From assembly GCA_000004985.1 (NCBI GenBank), contig GG738880.1: a DNA stretch of 64,000 nucleotides; one strand, written 5' to 3'. This stretch comes from Naegleria gruberi (lineage: Eukaryota). Below, piece by piece: positions 18,853 through 40,922 of this stretch. The first letter of the stretch is position 1, and each line of letters begins with the position of its first letter. The notes under the pieces were generated by a model. It saw only the letters and a list, made by a program, of their open reading frames with translations. It had not been told where the DNA came from and did not search any database. The position numbers were made by a program, and so were the translations under genes.

Positions 18853-21800
18853 TTATTGTTTGAGAGCAGAGCCCATTTGTTCTTTCAATTCGAATAATTT
18901 GTTCATTTGTTGATAACTGGATGTAATGAAGAAACGAGAGAAAGTATCATCCAAGTTAACCATCAAAGCACAATACATATCCTTTAAAGTCTCTTTCAAA
19001 TCATCGCTTTCAATCTTGCCACTTTTAATCAATTCGAATTGAGAATTGAATGATTTCTTGATGTGATGAGAAAAATTGATTTCCATTGGAGAATTAGTTG
19101 CCACAAAATTTTCATTCCATTCAGTAAATTCTTTTTCCAGATCTTCCATTGATGGAATATTTCCCCTATTAATTTCCTCAAGAATAGGATAAAGTTTCTT
19201 CCAAAATATTACATTTTCTAATGAATGTTCTGTCTTGGCAAATTGTTCAAAAACTTGACAAAGTATTGGTTGAATAAGAATATCCTTGATTTGATTATCC
19301 TCTTCCACATCTTCATTTCCAATCTGTGAAGTATAACCCTTTTTAGAAGCCAAGTATTCATAAATGGAAATAATTGAAACTAATCCACCAAAACTTAAAA
19401 TCAAAAGTAAATTATAAATCACTTCAAAAATATAGCCAACAATTAAATAGCTCTCTCTTGCATTGAGTGAAGTCTGTGAGGTGAGATAGGAGAAACCCAT
19501 TGCATTGGAAATTACATAGAACGCAATACTAATGAAAAATAAGGCAAATTCCTTTCTGAAGGAAAGATTGTCATTCACAATAAAGTAATTCTTGATTGGG
19601 TTAATGAAGAGTTTCTTATCTGTTTCTTTCAATTTGGAATTCAATTGAACATATCTCAATTCCATATAAATATCCACTGCATAGATAACACAAACAAGTA
19701 ATGAAATGGTCATTACAAATGCAAATAATGAGCTTGACATAATTTTTGTGTAGGTGTCTCCATCAATTGCACTCCTTCCCATCAGTGAAATGAAGATAAC
19801 AAAATAAATAATAATGAATAGAGCAATAACAGCATTCCACACAATAGAGAAAAACTTGTTGGTGAGAATGATCTTGGTCCACTTTAAAAAGGTATCAGTT
19901 TGAGTTTCTTTCTTTTCACTCAAAATGGCCATCAATTCATAAACATATTTGAATGTAATATATCTCAAATTGAACATTAAATAGTTCAATAATGAGAGGC
20001 AATAGAAAGTGCAACTAATCATTGTAAAAACGGATTGGACTATTGAGCTATCTCCACTTCTATCCAATAACATTGAACCAGGAATAATCACGCTAAAAAG
20101 CAGTTCAATAATAAGAGATACCAGGGCAAAGTAAGGAAGATACCATCTGCTCTTTGTTGGATTCCTTCGTGAGGTTATAATTAATCCAACAATTGCAACA
20201 ATAGCCAATACAATCAAAATTGAGCTGACAACAATTTTTCCAATGGTGAGAGGTATGCTACTGTATTTGGTAAATTGAAGGAATGCAGAGAATGTAGTGG
20301 TATGATTACATTGACAGTCAATAATACCATTAGATTGGTCAACCAGAGTTTTACATCCATCTGTTTTCCATAATCTTTCAGTTTCATCGAAATACTTGCA
20401 AGAAATAGTTAGTTGTGTGGAATTGGATTGGATGCTTTCTATGGTGCTCTTATCTACATTAAATTTAATGCTGATAGGGTTAGAGAGATTCGAAACGTTG
20501 AGAACTTGACCATTGGAAATATACTTGAGATCAGTAACCTTGGCCAAATTGACAAATGACGTTCCTGCTAATCCAATTAAATTATTGTAGGAATAGTTAT
20601 TACTCAATACAGATCCAGATATTAAGGAGGCCAACTTTTCAACATTTAAATAGGTAACACTTCCAATAGAAATATCTTTTAAAGTACTTAGCTCACTAGG
20701 AGTTACTACTGTGGTATTTCCATCAGAAACAATTGATTGATTGATATTTCTGGCAACTGACACTATAAAAGAAGCTGTAACCACTTGGAAAATACTATCT
20801 GATTGGGATGAAATTCTAGTGGCCACCATTACCGTTTTCTCAATAATTGAATTACTTTCTGAGCTAATATTGAAATTTTGAGACGAGTAGCAGTTAGAAT
20901 ATGCCATTAATACATTTGACAATGTTGATTCGTATGAAGCACTTGAGGTCTTTAAGGTATTCGAATCCAGTTGACTAAGTTCCTTGGAAATATTAACAGC
21001 TAAATTAGAGATGGTGTTCAGAATAGTCGAACTAACTTGAGATTGGGATGTAATGACAGACAATGCTTCTGTAACTTTGAGAGTTTCATCAGCATTGGAT
21101 GCATTTCTTTGTAAAGTTGAAATAGCGTTAGTGACAAGTTCCAAAACTTGAACAACATTAGTTGACTTGGAATAGGTATCCTTATTAGATGCAATGGTAG
21201 CAACATCACTAATTGGTAAAGTTTTGAGGAAACTTTCAGAAAAAACACTTTCGTATTCCATTACTTGTAAAGTATTGGAAAAGTCAACTGTGAATGATTC
21301 AGTTCCTAACGTGGCTGTTATAGAACATGAATAATTTCCCTTCTTCATGAACTTATCAATTGAAATAATCAATGGATTGGTGAATGATTGGATGTTCAAA
21401 GGTGTATTGAAATATGTGGTCAATTGATTTTTGCATTTCATTTCATAAGTAGCTGATTGGTAAACTGATTTGAATGATTCCGCATAGTTCAGTACTACTT
21501 TAACACTTGTATTAGTGTAAGTGACAGTTGAATAAAACTTTACATCAAATACAGGAGTCAGGCAATCTTTTCCATACCATCCACTTGTACAACCTGAAAT
21601 TACATACTTTCTAATAGTTGAATCTGCAACAATTATAGATCCATCATTAGTAATAGAAAGTGAGTTTGGCTGGAAGAGTATTATTTCATTCTTTCCTGGT
21701 GTTCCAATTATTGTTGAGATAGTATTCGATGATCTATACCATCTTCTAATACATTGATTGGATTTTTCTAAAATAGCCATATCTCCATTAGAAAAGAATG

Positions 21801-23630
21801 CAAAGTGATTTAATCTCATTGAATAAGTTTCTGGTGTTAGATCTGTTTCATTAGAATAAGTAATACAATCAGATTTTCCAAATAAGGTAATAAGTGATTT
21901 GTTTTGCATAATCTTGTACATATTACACAAAACTGAATCATAAAATACAATATTACCATCAATGGGATCTACTGACAAACGGTTAACAGATTTTCCAAAC
22001 AATGTATCGTTACCAACAAACACATCAAGAATTCCATTACTGTCAACTGTAAAAATTGACCCAACACTGCCAATAAATATCTTTGAATCATTCATCATAA
22101 CTGATCCTATTTTGATTGATGAATTAGAAGCCAAGCCCCCATATTGAACTTCATTATGAGCGTGGTATCCTCCAATTATTGTTGTCATTACTCCACTCAC
22201 ATCAATTTTCATCACTGCTGTAGTGTTGGCAAAGTACAGATTATCAGAGTTTTCAAACAATGAAATTGAAGTACCAACAGGTGAATTAATGGCAAGAGTT
22301 TCACCTACAACATAGGAAATGCCAAACGAATCTGTTCTTCCATTACCAGCAATAATAGTAGAAATACCATTCGTATATTTGTGAATGAATGGAACAGCAG
22401 CTTGGTAGGCATATCTCAACTCTCCACTCTGCTTATCCACAATAAATTGTGAAACAGTATTCAAATTGGTATTGTTTGCCAGAGTTGGCTCATTATTTCT
22501 CACAAAATATTTGGTTGAGCATTCTCCTGCAATAACAGCATTTGAAGTTCTATTGTAAATAAATCTTGTTCTTTCTGAAACAATTACATTACCAAATGAA
22601 TCAATCAAATAGGCATATGGTGAATTAATTCCTGTATTATTCAATACAGCTTGTTGAGCAGTATTAATTTCATAAGCTAAAATTGGTTGACCATTAGCAC
22701 TCGACATGTAGAGAGTTTCTCCAAATTTAACTAGTTTAGTTGGATAGAGTGTTGGATCATACACTACAGTTTGCATTTGTCTTGTATTCAAATCGATAGC
22801 TGTAAGTTTTCCAACAATTGCTTCGACCACAAATAATGTATATCCATCTAAAACCAATCCTTGAGGATTTCCAAGTGAAACTTTAGCAGCCCCAACCGTA
22901 TTAATATTACCATCACCTGCTACAGTGGTTATGTTACGATAAATCATATCATACATTCTCACTTTGTTATTGCTTGTATCTGAAATATACATGTATCGTC
23001 CAGTTTCGGATATAGCAAGGCCCATTACACCATTAAATTGAATTGTTTCCATTGGATTATTATCACCACCGTAACCAGAACTACCACAAACTCCAACAAA
23101 ATCCTCAATAATATTCGTCATCAAATTTACCCTTCTAACGCAACTGTTACCAGCATCTAATATGTTTCGAATAAAAACAAAATAAACATTCATGACATAC
23201 CTGCAATATAAACATATCCTCCAAACTCAACAATATCCAAAGGGTTTGCAAGTATGGCCAAAGTAGCCAAAACACCATTTCCATAATATCCATAGGCATA
23301 ACTTCCAGCAAATTGTGAAATTTTTCCATCACTTGAAATTCGTCTAATAACATCATGTCCAGAATCGACAATATAAATCGTATTATTTGAGCCCATTTTC
23401 ACAACCTCTATCGTATCCAAACATGCCATTTTAGCATCCAATCCATCGCCATACTTGTTGAGTGAATTCAATGACATGCCACCAGCAAGTAAAGTGGAAG
23501 TTGTTGAATATTTGAAGGAACCTGAAGGATTGGACTTGGCAGTTGTTGTTATCGAAAGGAGGAGTAACAACAGTGCATGTAGTAGTACAGCCACTGACAG
23601 CAGTGAGATCAATGACGTGGGATTTGGCAT
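18853..23630 (-). CDS. adhesion-GPCR-like receptor: signal peptide, NHL-type beta-propeller, GPS/GAIN motif, 7TM and C-terminal RGS domain
   Basis: Two exons, 23202..23630 and 18853..23157 (44-nt intron, GTATGT..TAG, phase 1). N-terminal signal peptide (LISLLSVAVLLHALLLLLLS). Repeated NHL-like blades (NTIYIVDSGHDVIRRI, YVYIADAGNSCVRRV, RYMYISDTSNNKVRMYD...). S/T-rich stalk. GPS motif CKYFDETERLWKTDGCKTLVDQSNGIIDCQCNHTTTFSAFL at about 20284..20410. Seven hydrophobic helices at about 19345..20275. RGS fold (ENVIFWKKL...INFSHHIKK...MYCALMVNLDDTFSRFFITSSY) at about 18905..19270. Confidence 0.8.
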
Positions 23631-37040: not shown

Positions 37041-38085
37041 TTAATAAGTATCAATATATTTAGCTCTAGCATCAGCTCTAGCTAACCATCCCTTCAAGAA
37101 CTTGTTATTGGCAGTACCTGGTCTTCCCCAATACAAATAATCCTTTCTGTGTCTTTCGTTCAAAAGTCTAGCGAATGCCTTAGCATCTTGATTCTTGTAT
37201 CCACCGAGTTCATTGAGGTATTGTCTTGATCTACCAGTACCAGAGTTGACAGCAATATCAGCACAGACATAGAAAGCAGGTTGTGGCAAGTTAGCACATC
37301 CTCCTGGAGTGAAATAATTAGTAGTGTACAATTTGGCAGCACATGTCTTATAAACAGCAATATTCTTATTGTAAGCATAGTAACAGAAATCAGCTGGATG
37401 ACCAGTGTAACCACTAGCCAATGGAGCAAAGATTCCATTTCTATTATTCCAACATTCACTATTGTATTTAAGAAATAATATTAATTGTCAGATGTCAACA
37501 GTTCAGTAAACTAATAAATTTCAATTGAAACACTTACGCTGGAATAACACCCATACAAGTGTAACCAATCTTTCCTTGGAATGAATTTCCAGAATCACTA
37601 GCCCAATTTTGACACTTTCCTTCACTCTTGAAAATTTCAGCCAAAGCTTCAGCAGCCTTATCACCAGTCTTACTATCACGTCCACCGGCAGTTGATGATG
37701 AACCAGTATTAGTATTACTATTAGAACATGCCATCTTTAAAAATTGAGCAGAAACCCATTGATTGTCACCAATACGAGCCCATTTAGTTCCATCCTTATC
37801 AGTAGTTTCATAGACAGTGACAGGAACATTATTTCCCAAAGTCTTGACGAGGTTTCCACCAGGACTTGTTCTAACGTTCAATGCGGAGGCAACATTGGTA
37901 CAACGAGATTCTGGAGCGAAGGCTTGTTGATCAGCCAATGATTGGACATTCTTTTCGAGTAATTGTTGTTTAATTTCTTGGATCAAAGCTTTGGCTAATT
38001 TCTTCTCTAATGAGAGAGCACTTGTCAAACCAAGAATGACACACAAGAAGGTGGTGATGAGGAGAATCACGGAGAGCTTTTGCAT
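37041..38085 (-). CDS. secreted bacterial-type cell-wall hydrolase: signal peptide, SH3b domain, GH108-family (zliS-like) N-acetylmuramidase with PG_binding_3-type region
   Basis: Exons 37538..38085 and 37041..37458, joined by a 79-nt GTAAGT..TAG intron. Signal peptide MQKLSVILLITTFLCVILGLTSA; SH3b-like ALNVRTSPGGNLVKTLGNNVPVTVYETTDKDGTKWARIGDNQWVSAQFL; G/S/T linker; GH108 signature SEGKCQNWASDSGNSFQGKIGYTCMGV (compare hEGGyvddpkDpGGaTnmGVt); and LPQPAFYVCADIAVNSGTGRSRQYL (compare LP.GLDLLVFDAAVNHG.RRA..LLQ). Confidence 0.75.
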
Positions 38086-38383: not shown

Positions 38384-39218
38384 TTAGAAAGAAGTCCAAC
38401 CTCCATCCACAGTCATAACACTTCCATTCACAAAACTGGCATCATCAGACACCAAAAACAATGCAACCTTTGCCAATTCTTCTGGTTGACCAAGTCTAGG
38501 AATCAACTTAGTTCCCAAATACATTTTTCCAGCTCCCAATGGATGAGGTGACTTGATTTCAATTCCAGTAGCAACACTTCCAGGTGCAATAACATTACAT
38601 CTGATCTTATCACTGTAATGGAATGCAACATTCTTACTCATTCCAACTAATGCATGCTTACTTGCAGTGTAGGCAATTCCAGCTCTACCACCATGTAATC
38701 CACCAACTGAGGCAATGTTTACAATGGATCCATTACCTTTTTCAAGGAAAATTGGAATTGCTTTTCTCATGGTTCTCATTGGAGCTGTTGTGTTAACAGA
38801 CATGACTTTCTCCCACAATTCATCTGAAATATCGTGACATGGAACAAAGTTGTCCATGATACCTGCATTATTGACCAAGATATCTAGTGTTCCAAACTTG
38901 TTGATTGTTTCTTCGAAGAGTTTGTCCACTTCTTCTTGTTTGGATACATCACATTTGTGTCCAAAAGCTACACCTCCTAATTTTTCAATTTCTTCAACAG
39001 TTTCTTGAATTCTTTGTTCAACAACATCAGTAACCACAACCTTGCATCCTTCTTCAGCATATGTAAGGGCGATAGCCTTTCCCATTCCTTTAATAAAACC
39101 ATAAATTAACACATGGACACAGTTCCATTAAAACAGTAAAATAAAAAACAAACTTACCAGAGCCAGATCCAGTAACAATGGCAACTCTTCCTTGCAATTT
39201 CTTTGTTTCAGTACTCAT
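38384..39218 (-). CDS. short-chain dehydrogenase/reductase (FabG-like classical SDR)
   Basis: Exons 39158..39218 (MSTETKKLQGRVAIVTGSGSG) and 38384..39087, joined by a 70-nt GTAAGT..AAG intron that splits the TGxxxGxG cofactor motif. LVNNAGI, catalytic S...YTASKHAL (YxxxK) and PG..ATG motifs are all present. Confidence 0.85.
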
Positions 39219-39344
39219 TATTAAACAGTTATTGGTTGGTGTATATTTCTTGTTGTTTTTTTATTGATTGTCATTAAATTGAAAAGCATTTCAATTTAAT
39301 GCTGATTCCTTACACCGATAACAGCGATACAAAGAAGAGGACTT

Positions 39345-39496
39345 GAACTTCTCAAACAATTTGTCCATCAACCTTCACAGGCCATGGTTAGAACCAATGA
39401 ATACTTTTTGATGTTGTTCATAACCTCGAGGAGAGTATGGTTTGATGTTGTTGGTGATTTCATTCGAAGGTTGATGGACAAATTGTTTGAGAAGTT
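39345..39496. repeat. 31-bp perfect inverted repeat (stem) flanking a 90-nt spacer
   Basis: AACTTCTCAAACAATTTGTCCATCAACCTTC at 39345..39375 is exactly reverse-complementary to 39466..39496; it lies at the 3' end and UTR of the AIF-like gene. Confidence 0.8.
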
Positions 39497-40922
39497 GGCA
39501 AACTGAATTAGTTGACTGAATTATCAAATTCTAATAACTTTACATACCTTTTTGGGATTGAAGTATTGAGCAATAAACCAATTTGGTTTCTTTTACATTA
39601 GTTACATCGCCAATGGCAAACATATTTTTGAATGGTTGGTCGTTTTCATCTAAAACTTGTAAATGATTATTAACTTGGATGAAACCGTTCGAATCCAAAC
39701 TATTTGGAAATTCGTCTCTTAACATTTCAGATTGTGGTTTCAATCCAGTGCACAGAAAACAAACATCACATTCAATATCAATGAATGTATTCAATTGACT
39801 ATTCTGAATTCTAAAAGTTGTTGAATTTGATTGAGAAACAATCTCACTCCATAGGTGAATCTTTACATTTCTCATTGTTTCGAATACTTCACTAACTTTC
39901 TTACTTGCTTCTTCACTAGAAGGTTTCATAATTCTGTCAGATCTTTGAATAATATGAATAGTCTTTTCAGGATACTTTTCAGCAATAGAGCCTGCAATTT
40001 CACAGCCAACAAAACCTCCACCCACAATACAAATATCTTTCAGAGATGAGTTTCTGATAAATTCATGAGAATCGAGAATGCTTTGGGAATTGTAACAATT
40101 TACAAACTTGATTTGATTGTCAGAGCGGAGAGTTGGTAAATTGAAACGACATGTACATCCAGTACCAATCAATACGAAATCATATTCTATAGTTTCAGTG
40201 ATTTCCTCAGTTGACTTGGAATGAATTCGATAATGAATGAGGGATTTGTCAATTTTTGAAACCTTTCCAGCAATACAATTTGCTCTTGGAAGAGTGTTTG
40301 CATGATTAACAGATAAATGTTCAGCCACTGCCTTATCTTTGACCATAAAAGGAAAACCAGGAGCAAAATCCAAAGCTCCGTTGAGATCAATAATTGTGAC
40401 ATCAAATAAATCTCTGATGGTTTTATCCTTACATGCAGTGTAGCCACCGAAACCACCTCCAACAATAACTAATCTAGGTTTCATTGAAAGTTTAAATAGG
40501 TTTCTGTCAATTTTGGAAGAATCGTTTGGTTTGAAAAGGTTTAGAACAATTGAAACTAAACCTTGCAATGGATGAAATAGTCCTAAATTGGATGTTTCAG
40601 CAATGGGTTCTATCCAATTCATAATGCACATAATCTTCACTACAAGATAGAATTGACTTTCAGAAATGTCAAAAGTCTTTTCCATTAAATCCATCAAATC
40701 ACCCAAATAAAAGCAGTAATGTTGTAGTTGACCAAACCATTCAATTCTTCTTGAGTGCATTTTCAAACCACTTTCAAACCTTCTCATTCTGTAAATTGAG
40801 AATTCCTTCAAAACCTTGACAAACTCTCCATTCATTATTTCTTCAATTTGTTCTCTTGTCAAATTGGTTTCTGACTTTAAATATTCGAAACCCTTCTTGA
40901 TTACTTCTTGTTGTGTTTGCAT
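39375..40922 (-). CDS. AIF/AMID(FSP1)-like FAD-dependent pyridine nucleotide-disulfide oxidoreductase with an N-terminal extension
   Basis: Main exon 39548..40922 (track ORF 39540..40922): about 140-aa N-terminal region of unknown function, then RLVIVGGGFGGYTACK, ICIVGGGFVGCEIAGS and FAIGDVTNV (Pyr_redox_2). A possible 3' exon 39375..39502 follows a 45-nt GTATGT..CAG intron (adds VCQLLKQFVHQPSNEITNNIKPYSPRGYEQ...). That exon overlaps the 31-bp inverted repeat, so the 3' end is uncertain. Confidence 0.7.

What the first reader, a model, noticed from the sequence alone, without database searches (positions are those of the whole stretch)
39345..39496. 31-bp perfect inverted repeat forming a long hairpin at the 3' end of the AIF-like oxidoreductase gene
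AACTTCTCAAACAATTTGTCCATCAACCTTC at 39345..39375 is exactly reverse-complementary to 39466..39496, with a 90-nt loop. A perfect 31-bp stem is far beyond chance. One arm overlaps the candidate terminal exon of the minus-strand oxidoreductase gene, and the other would sit in its 3' UTR. The transcript could therefore fold into a stable stem-loop, with possible roles in RNA stability or localisation control or as a small-RNA precursor. The structure could also be the paired terminal inverted repeats of a miniature transposon remnant. It additionally casts doubt on the 3' exon model of that gene.
Basis: seen in the sequence. Interest (0 to 1): 0.5.

Follow-up and report, generated by a model that had tools for sequence, protein, structure and literature searches.

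The report
Mutation scar: deletion plus inverted copy
The perfect 31-bp hairpin is a recent mutational scar in the Naegleria gruberi reference strain: 194 bp at the end of an FSP1-like oxidoreductase gene were lost and patched with a back-to-front copy of nearby coding sequence, which cuts 33 conserved residues off the protein.

Summary
The repeat is real: arms 39346-39376 and 39466-39496, 31/31 complementary, 89-nt spacer. It is the only one of its kind in 64 kb. The window is Naegleria gruberi. The repeat lies in the last exon of a minus-strand FSP1/AIFM2-like gene. The upstream arm (mRNA sense) and the whole spacer are conserved coding sequence, and family homology stops exactly where the downstream arm begins. 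An independent contig from a sister strain (L004, ~98.7% identical) is collinear on both sides. In place of the downstream arm it has 194 nt that continue the ORF into the family's conserved tail (…GSNHGLWLSGSKLLFTSSYLPWLMETTMILRGKIMNKDTN*). The window allele is therefore derived: a 194-bp deletion plus a 31-nt insertion, of which 30 nt are an exact inverted copy of sequence 90-120 nt upstream. The junction turns Trp TGG into TGA. This is the signature of a template switch, either at a replication fork or by snap-back synthesis during end joining. A pre-existing 10-bp inverted repeat probably nucleated it: one copy abuts the template and the other lies in the deleted DNA (p≈3e-4). It is not a MITE and not a conserved RNA element. 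A neat but ordinary case.

The parts
39466..39496 (-). Upstream arm in mRNA sense (AACTTCTCAAACAATTTGTCCATCAACCTTC). This is ancestral coding sequence (codons QLLKQFVHQPS of the last exon) and served as the template for the copy.
   Evidence: It aligns in frame with FSP1/AIFM2 structures and with the Naegleria family profile. It is identical in sister strain L004 at 217-247.
39377..39465 (-). The 89-nt spacer, which forms the hairpin loop. It is ordinary conserved coding sequence (NEITNNIKPYSPRGYEQHQKVFIGSNHGL).
   Evidence: The family profile aligns through it and ends at ...NHGL (26.6 bits, E 2.4e-10). It is collinear with L004, with 3 substitutions.
39346..39376 (-). Downstream arm in mRNA sense (GAAGGTTGATGGACAAATTGTTTGAGAAGTT). 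This is the derived reverse-complement copy. Its first G is shared with the ancestral allele, giving 1 nt of junction microhomology.
   Evidence: It is absent from L004 (no reverse-complement copy of the arm). Family homology breaks exactly at its inner edge.
39345..39375 (-). The 31-nt insertion specific to this strain (AAGGTTGATGGACAAATTGTTTGAGAAGTTC). Of these, 30 nt are an exact inverted copy of 39467-39496 and one is an extra C. It replaces 194 nt present in the sister strain (L004 338-531).
   Evidence: blastn breakpoints and base-by-base junction mapping.
39375..39377 (-). The present stop codon TGA. It was created at the left junction from the ancestral Trp codon TGG (TG plus the first inserted A).
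   Evidence: L004 reads ...CAT GGC CTG TGG CTA... (HGLWL) where the window reads ...CAT GGC CTG TGA AGG. P0140, P0141 and P0290 also have W at this position.
39457..39466 (-). CGAATGAAAT, directly abutting the 3' edge of the copied template. In the ancestral-type allele its perfect inverted partner ATTTCATTCG lies inside the deleted segment (L004 458-467). It is the candidate fold-back priming site.
   Evidence: the repeat finder pair I10 on L004. Shuffle test: p = 3e-4 anchored exactly, 1.5e-3 allowing +/-2 nt. The stem also appears in the minimum-energy fold of the ancestral RNA.
39375..39502 (-). The last exon coding sequence as it now stands: 41 whole codons after the split Val codon, then TGA. 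It is truncated by 33 codons relative to the sister strain.
   Evidence: Translation, homology and the full-length L004 exon.
39503..39547 (-). A 45-nt phase-1 intron (GTATGT...TTCAG) separating the main exon from the last exon.
   Evidence: The sequence. The frame is continuous with homologues across the junction (...ILQSQK|VCQLLK...). The intron is conserved in L004.
39548..40922 (-). The main exon of the gene. It has an N-terminal extension shared with Naegleria paralogues and a Pyr_redox_2 (FSP1/AIFM2-like) oxidoreductase domain.
   Evidence: A 460-codon ORF, Pfam PF07992 at E 6.8e-33, PDB FSP1/AIFM2 at E 5e-20 and paralogues P0140 and P0148.

Best explanation
The hairpin is the footprint of one recent, strain-specific rearrangement in the N. 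gruberi reference strain. It is not an evolved element. The ancestral gene, still present in a sister strain, ended with a conserved 33-residue tail followed by its 3' UTR. In the lineage of the sequenced strain, 194 bp were lost: the tail codons, the stop codon and about 92 nt of UTR. The gap was bridged by 31 nt of new DNA. Thirty of these were synthesised by a DNA end that turned back and copied the same strand 90-120 nt upstream, so they are the exact reverse complement of codons QLLKQFVHQP(S). One extra C follows. This is what template switching at a replication fork produces, and also what snap-back synthesis during microhomology-mediated (Pol-theta-type) end joining produces. Shown here: the two alleles, their polarity, both breakpoints, the templated origin of the insert, and the TGG-to-TGA change. 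Inferred: the enzymology, and the role of a pre-existing 10-bp inverted repeat. One copy of that repeat abuts the template and the other lies in the deleted DNA, and it probably brought the strands together. If it served as the primer, a further 130-bp loss or a second switch within the same event is needed to reach the present sequence. Consequences: the protein is truncated at ...GSNHGL, and the mRNA accidentally gains a 31-bp stem spanning the stop codon.
For: (1) The window is N. gruberi (100% identical annotated proteins). (2) L004 is an independent assembly of the same locus from sample ERR1078381. It matches window 39712-39376 at 98.5% and 39344-38257 at 98.7%. Its positions 338-531 (194 nt) have no counterpart in the window, and window 39375-39345 has no counterpart in L004. 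(3) L004 carries only one arm. (4) L004's extra DNA continues the ORF as WLSGSKLLFTSSYLPWLMETTMILRGKIMNKDTN*. This matches the tail profile of Naegleria paralogues and orthologues (23 bits, E 2.8e-9; whole C-terminus 58.7 bits, E 2.3e-20). In the window no frame downstream of the TGA scores above 0.6 bits. The L004 state is therefore ancestral. (5) The profile alignment in the window ends at the codon before the TGA, which is the inner edge of the derived arm. (6) The insert is 30/30 identical to the reverse complement of 39467-39496. (7) A 10-bp perfect inverted repeat in L004 (247-256 / 458-467) abuts the template edge exactly, p = 3e-4. (8) The ancestral RNA is unstructured (z = +0.27) and the derived RNA is strongly structured (z = -6.7). 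(9) Such events are documented to create perfect hairpins in one step (PMC5453318, PMC8794818) and to give deletion plus inverted templated insertion at repaired breaks (PMC5728401, PMC2943611, PMC4912351).
Against: Only one comparison allele is available, and it comes from a short metagenome contig. At the final left junction only 1 nt (G:C) of primer microhomology is visible. The right junction fits a GTT microhomology only if a GA-to-C difference is also assumed (printout). Using the 10-bp repeat as primer does not give the observed product in one step. I could not verify the window allele with independent reads of the reference strain, so a cloning or assembly origin, or heterozygosity, is not excluded. 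I did not test whether Naegleria has a Pol theta orthologue.
Confidence: 0.85

Rival explanations
1. The hairpin is a selected RNA element in the mRNA 3' end: a stability or localisation signal, a Dicer substrate or a small-RNA precursor.
For: The stem is very stable in the sense transcript. A sub-threshold Rfam match to a miRNA-precursor model exists (39 bits). Template switching is a documented route to new miRNA hairpins (PMC10710096, PMC8794818).
Against: The second arm is absent in a ~98.7%-identical sister strain, which instead has the conserved protein tail. One arm is constrained coding sequence. The Rfam hit is far below the gathering score of 90 and is to a plant family. The stem spans the stop codon, so translating ribosomes would melt it. 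Making it destroyed 33 conserved codons.
Confidence: 0.05
2. The window allele is an artefact of cloning or assembly of the reference genome, for example a rearrangement in an E. coli shotgun clone, and does not exist in the amoeba.
For: No independent read-level confirmation was possible. The only other assembly of the locus has the long allele. E. coli also performs template switching at quasi-palindromes (established knowledge).
Against: The structure has clean single-base junctions and a local templated insert, which is typical of in-vivo events. A consensus assembly normally rests on several independent clones (an inference, since I could not see coverage). The flanks are otherwise normal.
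Confidence: 0.07
3. The repeat arms are the terminal inverted repeats of a MITE or transposon remnant inserted at the gene's 3' end.
For: A perfect short inverted repeat flanking about 90 nt superficially resembles a MITE.
Against: The interior and one arm are the gene's own conserved coding sequence, in frame with homologues. The flanks GACTTG / GCAAAC show no target-site duplication. There is no other copy in 64 kb with up to 3 mismatches or in the fetched loci. The sister strain has the 'interior' but only one 'TIR'.
Confidence: 0.01
4. Reverse polarity: the window allele is ancestral and the sister strain gained 194 nt.
For: With two alleles alone, polarity is formally ambiguous.
Against: The 194 nt encode, in frame, the tail conserved in N. 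gruberi paralogues and in N. lovaniensis and N. fowleri proteins (E 2.8e-9). An insertion could not create that by chance.
Confidence: 0.01

Closest known systems
Short template-switch mutations (four-point replication model; Loytynoja & Goldman 2017, PMC5453318; Monttinen & Loytynoja 2022, PMC8794818)
   Same: A stretch of derived sequence is the exact reverse complement of sequence about 100 nt away at the same locus. A perfect hairpin stem is created in a single event. The ancestral state lacking it is observable in a close relative.
   Different: The return point lies 194 nt downstream of the departure point, so the event also deletes DNA. The 30-nt copy is at the long end of typical events. 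One non-templated base is present.
Snap-back synthesis-dependent MMEJ / polymerase-theta-mediated end joining (PMC5728401, PMC2943611, PMC4912351, PMC5068794)
   Same: A deletion with a short insertion at a single junction. The insertion is templated in cis from the same strand in inverted orientation. The result becomes part of a new, longer inverted repeat. An inverted 'primer repeat' sits next to the template.
   Different: In the reporter assays the primer repeats are usually 1-4 nt and less than 25 bp apart, and inserts are a few nt. Here the fold-back spans 89 nt (201 nt if the 10-bp repeat was used) and the insert is 30 nt. The 10-bp candidate primer is not retained in the product. The enzyme was not identified in Naegleria.
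Quasi-palindrome correction (Ripley-type mutations; quasi-palindrome fragility, PMC3855049)
   Same: A pre-existing short inverted repeat (10 bp) is extended into a longer perfect one by copying one arm's flank.
   Different: Classical correction keeps length and both original arms. Here one original arm and 184 further nt are lost.
MITEs and miRNA-like hairpin genes
   Same: A perfect stem of about 30 bp with a loop of about 90 nt.
   Different: No target-site duplication, no copies elsewhere, a coding interior, and no conservation even between strains. Neither family's defining features are met.

Membership tests
Template-switch mutation (TSM) | The derived segment is an exact reverse complement of nearby sequence at the same locus | tested here: met
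   30/30 nt of the insert equal the reverse complement of window 39467-39496, 89-90 nt away.
Template-switch mutation (TSM) | An ancestral or outgroup state without the copy is observed, which fixes the polarity | tested here: met
   L004 has one arm only and carries the family-conserved tail. The tail profile scores E 2.8e-9 in L004 against no more than 0.6 bits in the window.
Template-switch mutation (TSM) | The whole change is explained by one departure and one return of the nascent strand | tested here: inconclusive
   One switch out (after L004 337), a copy of 246 to 217, and a return at 532 explain everything except one extra C. The significant 10-bp repeat hints at a more complex path.
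Snap-back SD-MMEJ / Pol-theta end joining | A deletion plus an insertion at one junction, with the insertion templated in cis in inverted orientation | tested here: met
   A 194-bp deletion and a 31-nt insertion with clean breakpoints.
Snap-back SD-MMEJ / Pol-theta end joining | An inverted primer repeat at the 3' end, adjacent to the template | tested here: inconclusive
   Only a G:C pair (1 nt) is visible at the final junction. A perfect 10-nt primer repeat exists (L004 458-467 against 247-256) but is not retained in the product.
Snap-back SD-MMEJ / Pol-theta end joining | [quoted passage not shown] | tested here: inconclusive
   GTT (L004 527-529) could pair with the insert's end ...AAGTT, but the product then needs GA to C (printout). 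The difference may be a strain polymorphism.
Snap-back SD-MMEJ / Pol-theta end joining | A Pol theta (POLQ) orthologue is present in the organism | not tested
   No search was run. The whole genome is not available through these tools.
MITE / transposon remnant | Terminal inverted repeats enclosing non-host sequence, flanked by a target-site duplication | tested here: not met
   The interior and one arm are host coding sequence. The flanks GACTTG and GCAAAC are not duplicated.
MITE / transposon remnant | Multiple copies in the genome | tested here: not met
   No other copy in 64 kb with up to 3 mismatches or in 8 fetched loci. The whole genome could not be searched.
Conserved structured RNA / miRNA precursor | A match to a curated family at its gathering score, or conservation of the stem in relatives | tested here: not met
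   The best Rfam hit is 39.1 bits against a gathering score of 90. The stem is absent in the sister strain.
Conserved structured RNA / miRNA precursor | Small RNAs processed from the stem | not testable with these tools
   No read data are accessible.
FSP1/AIFM2-type NAD(P)H oxidoreductase (the host gene) | A Pyr_redox_2 two-dinucleotide-binding fold with GxGxxG motifs and a GD motif | tested here: met
   PF07992 at E 6.8e-33. PDB 7xpi AIFM2 at E 4.9e-20, aligned over residues 4-325.
FSP1/AIFM2-type NAD(P)H oxidoreductase (the host gene) | A complete C-terminal tail as in Naegleria family members | tested here: not met
   The window allele ends at ...GSNHGL. The tail is present in L004, P0140, P0141, P0142 and P0290.

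The most novel reading that the evidence does not exclude
The rearrangement has just created a new 31-bp double-stranded RNA stem inside an expressed mRNA. Naegleria's RNAi machinery may process it into small RNAs that silence the host gene or its paralogues. That would catch the birth of a hairpin-RNA locus by template switching within a protein-coding gene, with both the 'before' and 'after' alleles still segregating.
Probability: 0.04. Interest if true: 0.6.

Novelty: new member of a known kind. Interest (0 to 1): 0.3.

Why it matters
The main value is as a clean natural example. Both alleles are in hand and both breakpoints are resolved to the base. The template is identified, and a statistically supported 10-bp inverted repeat is the likely nucleation site. 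This illustrates how a single template-switch or snap-back event can create a long perfect hairpin and truncate a gene in a free-living protist. In practical terms, it flags that the N. gruberi reference carries a truncated allele of one FSP1-like paralogue. I also found no protein model for that gene in the public collections I searched. Gene models and functional inferences for this family should therefore use the long allele. It also warns that perfect local inverted repeats at gene ends need not be regulatory elements or transposons.

Tried and rejected
(1) I thought the frame after the TGA (RLMDKLFEKFKSSSLYRCYRCK) and the -1 frame (WPVKVDGQIV) resembled the FSP1 or family tail, which would suggest readthrough, a frameshift or recoding. 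Profile searches gave no more than 0.6 bits in every frame, so I dropped this.
(2) A tiny intron removing the TGA (GTGAAG...TTCAAG, 25-37 nt) gives GLPLLCIAVIGVRNQH*, which has no homology to the family. Rejected.
(3) An alternative genetic code or selenocysteine at the TGA: other ORFs in the window are long under the standard stop codons, and the sister strain simply has TGG there. Rejected.
(4) Exact-protein look-ups meant to reach the annotated N. gruberi contig or other assemblies across the hairpin failed.
(5) The closest non-paralogous homologue locus, L003, has no equivalent hairpin and needs a 1-nt frame correction. It was useful only for the tail consensus.
(6) A metagenome scan with a 22-mer shared by both alleles returned two unrelated contigs that share only those 22 nt.
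(7) L005 and L006 (SDR homologues at 70-74% nt identity) do not carry the FSP1-like gene upstream, with no profile hit, so there is no deeper synteny.
(8) The sequence alignment to solved FSP1 structures stops before the tail, so the lost residues could not be mapped onto a structure. I did not run a structure prediction.
(9) I could not derive a single-step path that uses the 10-bp repeat as primer and yields the observed product. The models I considered need an extra 130-bp loss or a return into the hairpin loop.

Full report
OBSERVATION

The repeat exists. Arms 39346-39376 and 39466-39496 are 31/31 complementary and are separated by 89 nt. The finding's left arm was off by one base. No other copy with up to 3 mismatches occurs in the window, and no shuffle produced one. 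In all 64 kb it is the only perfect inverted repeat of at least 18 nt with arms within 500 nt; the runners-up are 74-89% complementary. The minus-strand RNA of 39320-39520 folds at -60.1 kcal/mol, with z = -6.7 against dinucleotide shuffles.

CONTEXT

The window is about 33% G+C, gene-dense, and has short GT..AG introns.
- A Na+/H+ exchanger ORF is 100% identical to a Naegleria gruberi predicted protein on a 416-kb contig.
- Neighbouring ORFs equal EFC42365.1 and EFC42367.1.

The repeat sits between two minus-strand genes. One is a short-chain dehydrogenase (38384-39218, Pfam adh_short_C2 at 1e-62). The other is a gene whose 460-codon main exon (39548-40922) carries a Pyr_redox_2 domain (E 6.8e-33) and is most similar to solved FSP1/AIFM2 structures (E 5e-20).

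A 45-nt phase-1 intron (39503-39547) joins this exon to a last exon. That exon reads VCQLLKQFVHQPSNEITNNIKPYSPRGYEQHQKVFIGSNHGL, followed by TGA. FSP1 structures align across the splice junction and through the first arm (…ILQSQK-VCQLLKQFVHQPS against …LHANIVVSNIINSLTHKPL). The arm at 39466-39496 is therefore bona fide coding sequence.

FAMILY COMPARISON

The word-indexed search found few relatives. The exhaustive search found a small family with the same architecture. Its named members are N. gruberi paralogues (P0140 = NAEGRDRAFT_71358, P0148 = NAEGRDRAFT_53307), an N. lovaniensis protein (P0141) and N. fowleri proteins (P0290, P0291). All of them continue after the motif G-P-N-H-G-L with a conserved tail, W/F/L-[IV]-K-G-x-x-[LV]-L-L-N-S…K-E…, of about 32-50 residues.

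A profile of the close members aligns to the window's last exon from the first arm through the whole spacer (26.6 bits, E 2.4e-10). It stops exactly at …NHGL, the codon before the TGA and the inner edge of the second arm. No frame downstream scores above 0.6 bits against tail-only profiles. My earlier visual impressions of tail-like sequence after the stop were therefore wrong.

THE DECISIVE COMPARISON

The dehydrogenase starts 128 nt from the repeat. I used it to look for other assemblies of the locus. P0293 (99% identical) lies on ENA contig k127_364238 of sample ERR1078381 (locus L004, 1615 nt). Other contigs of that sample are 99% identical to the window elsewhere (L001, L002), so it holds a sister strain of N. 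gruberi.

The blastn comparison gives:
- L004 1-337 matches window 39712-39376 at 98.5%.
- L004 532-1615 matches window 39344-38257 at 98.7%.
- L004 338-531 (194 nt) has no counterpart in the window.
- Window 39375-39345 (31 nt) has no counterpart in L004.

L004 contains the first arm (217-247) but no reverse-complement copy of it. Its ORF runs straight on as …KVFIGSNHGLWLSGSKLLFTSSYLPWLMETTMILRGKIMNKDTN*. This matches the family tail profile (23.0 bits, E 2.8e-9; whole C-terminus 58.7 bits, E 2.3e-20). Because the outgroups share the tail, the L004 state is ancestral and the window state is derived.

ANATOMY OF THE EVENT (mRNA sense)

- Ancestral: …AACCATGGCCTGTG|GCTATCAGG…(194 nt)…GCTGTTGA|AAGTCCTC…
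- Derived: …AACCATGGCCTGTG|AAGGTTGATGGACAAATTGTTTGAGAAGTT C|AAGTCCTC…

The 31-nt insert consists of 30 nt identical to the reverse complement of window 39467-39496, plus one C. The G before the insert pairs with the C that ends the template, which is why the repeat measures 31. TG plus the first inserted A converts the Trp codon TGG into TGA.

The deletion removes 33 tail codons, the original stop and about 92 nt of 3' UTR. The ancestral-type RNA has no unusual stability (z = +0.27). The hairpin is therefore new.

MECHANISM

An inverted, locally templated patch at a deletion junction is the known product of a nascent 3' end that leaves its template, copies the same or the opposite strand backwards for a few tens of nucleotides, and then returns. 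Two literatures describe this:
- Replication template-switch mutations, which create perfect hairpins in a single step (PMC5453318, PMC8794818, PMC10710096).
- The snap-back mode of synthesis-dependent MMEJ / Pol-theta end joining. [quoted passage not shown]

I cannot discriminate between the two.

One additional observation bears on initiation. In L004 a perfect 10-bp inverted repeat pre-exists. CGAATGAAAT (247-256) begins at the very base where the copied template ends, and ATTTCATTCG (458-467) lies inside the deleted DNA (pair I10). In 200,000 shuffles of the deleted segment, a match this long anchored at that base occurred with frequency 3e-4, or 1.5e-3 allowing +/-2 nt. It is also the stem predicted in the ancestral RNA fold. 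It very probably brought the two regions together.

If the 3' end …ATTTCATTCG itself primed the copy, the immediate product would retain 338-467 and have a 40-bp stem. A further 130-bp loss would then be needed, either long-palindrome processing or a return of the strand into the hairpin loop. If instead the end at G337 primed directly, only 1 nt of microhomology was used, and the 10-bp stem acted only by folding the template. At the right junction a GTT microhomology is possible but requires a GA-to-C difference. These steps are inference.

ALTERNATIVES

- MITE: refuted. The interior and one arm are the gene's own conserved coding sequence, there is no target-site duplication and there are no other copies.
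- Conserved RNA element: not supported. It is absent from a sister strain, and the only Rfam hit is 39 bits against a threshold of 90, to a plant miRNA family.
- Recoding, readthrough or a mini-intron: rejected. The sister strain has a plain TGG.
- Artefact of the reference assembly: not excluded, since I had no read access. I give it about 7%.
- Reverse polarity: refuted by the outgroups.

CONSEQUENCE AND SIGNIFICANCE

The reference allele encodes a protein lacking a tail that is conserved across Naegleria species and paralogues, so its function is probably impaired. That is an inference. The rest of the ORF is intact, as expected for a recent event. No protein model for this gene appeared in the collections searched, although its neighbours are there.

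The case is a well-resolved natural example of a known mutational process. It is not a new kind of element, and I score interest at 0.3. The most novel reading still open is that the newborn 31-bp stem is processed into small RNAs. I give that about 4%.

Noticed in passing
window 39273-39300: A 12-bp perfect stem with a 4-nt loop (ATTAAATTGAAA agca TTTCAATTTAAT) lies in the short spacer between the oxidoreductase 3' end and the dehydrogenase start codon. It is conserved in the sister strain as an 11-bp stem (L004 577-602). It could be a genuine 3'-end or terminator-like element or a promoter element.
   Followed up: no
window 38384-39218 (minus strand): The nearest named relatives of the short-chain dehydrogenase are Bacillota (Paenibacillus, Heyndrickxia, Geobacillus) SDRs at 56-60% identity over the full length. 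The only closer hits are unnamed environmental sequences. Its first ~21 codons are separated from the rest by an apparent intron of about 67 nt. It is a candidate bacterial gene transfer into Naegleria that later acquired an intron.
   Followed up: partly
window 39375-40922 (minus strand): No protein identical or near-identical to this FSP1-like gene was found in the 5.8-billion-cluster collection or among the 50% representatives; the best hit is a 47% paralogue. Neighbouring N. gruberi genes are present. The gene may be unannotated or mis-modelled in the reference annotation.
   Followed up: partly
window 40520-40922 and proteins P0140, P0141, P0142, P0144, P0148, P0151: All close family members share an N-terminal extension of about 120-270 residues ahead of the oxidoreductase domain, with motifs such as QKPYSGVKM…WF…HCF. 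This is an unusual fusion for FSP1/AIF-type enzymes and appears expanded in Naegleria, with at least three N. gruberi paralogues. I did not run it against Pfam.
   Followed up: no
L003 1370-1530: The homologue on Logan contig SRR15442435_19 needs a 1-nt frame correction just before …VGPSHGL to read its conserved tail. This is either an assembly indel or an independent disruption at almost the same spot of the gene.
   Followed up: no
window 37041-38085 (minus strand): Two adjacent ORFs read like a secreted protein: a signal-peptide-like start, an SH3b-like segment and a lysozyme- or muramidase-like C-terminus (…GTGRSRQYLNELGG…). They are probably one gene with an intron. This rests on my reading of the translation only and was not tested against any library.
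   Followed up: no
L007 419-440 and L008 212-233: Two JGI metagenome contigs share an exact 22-mer (TTGGTTCTAACCATGGCCTGTG) with the locus but nothing else. This is apparently a chance match in one unrelated organism sampled twice.
   Followed up: yes
window 18853-23193 (minus strand): A 1446-residue ORF combines a GPS (GPCR proteolysis site) motif with a C-terminal RGS domain. It looks like an adhesion-GPCR-like receptor fused to an RGS domain.
   Followed up: no
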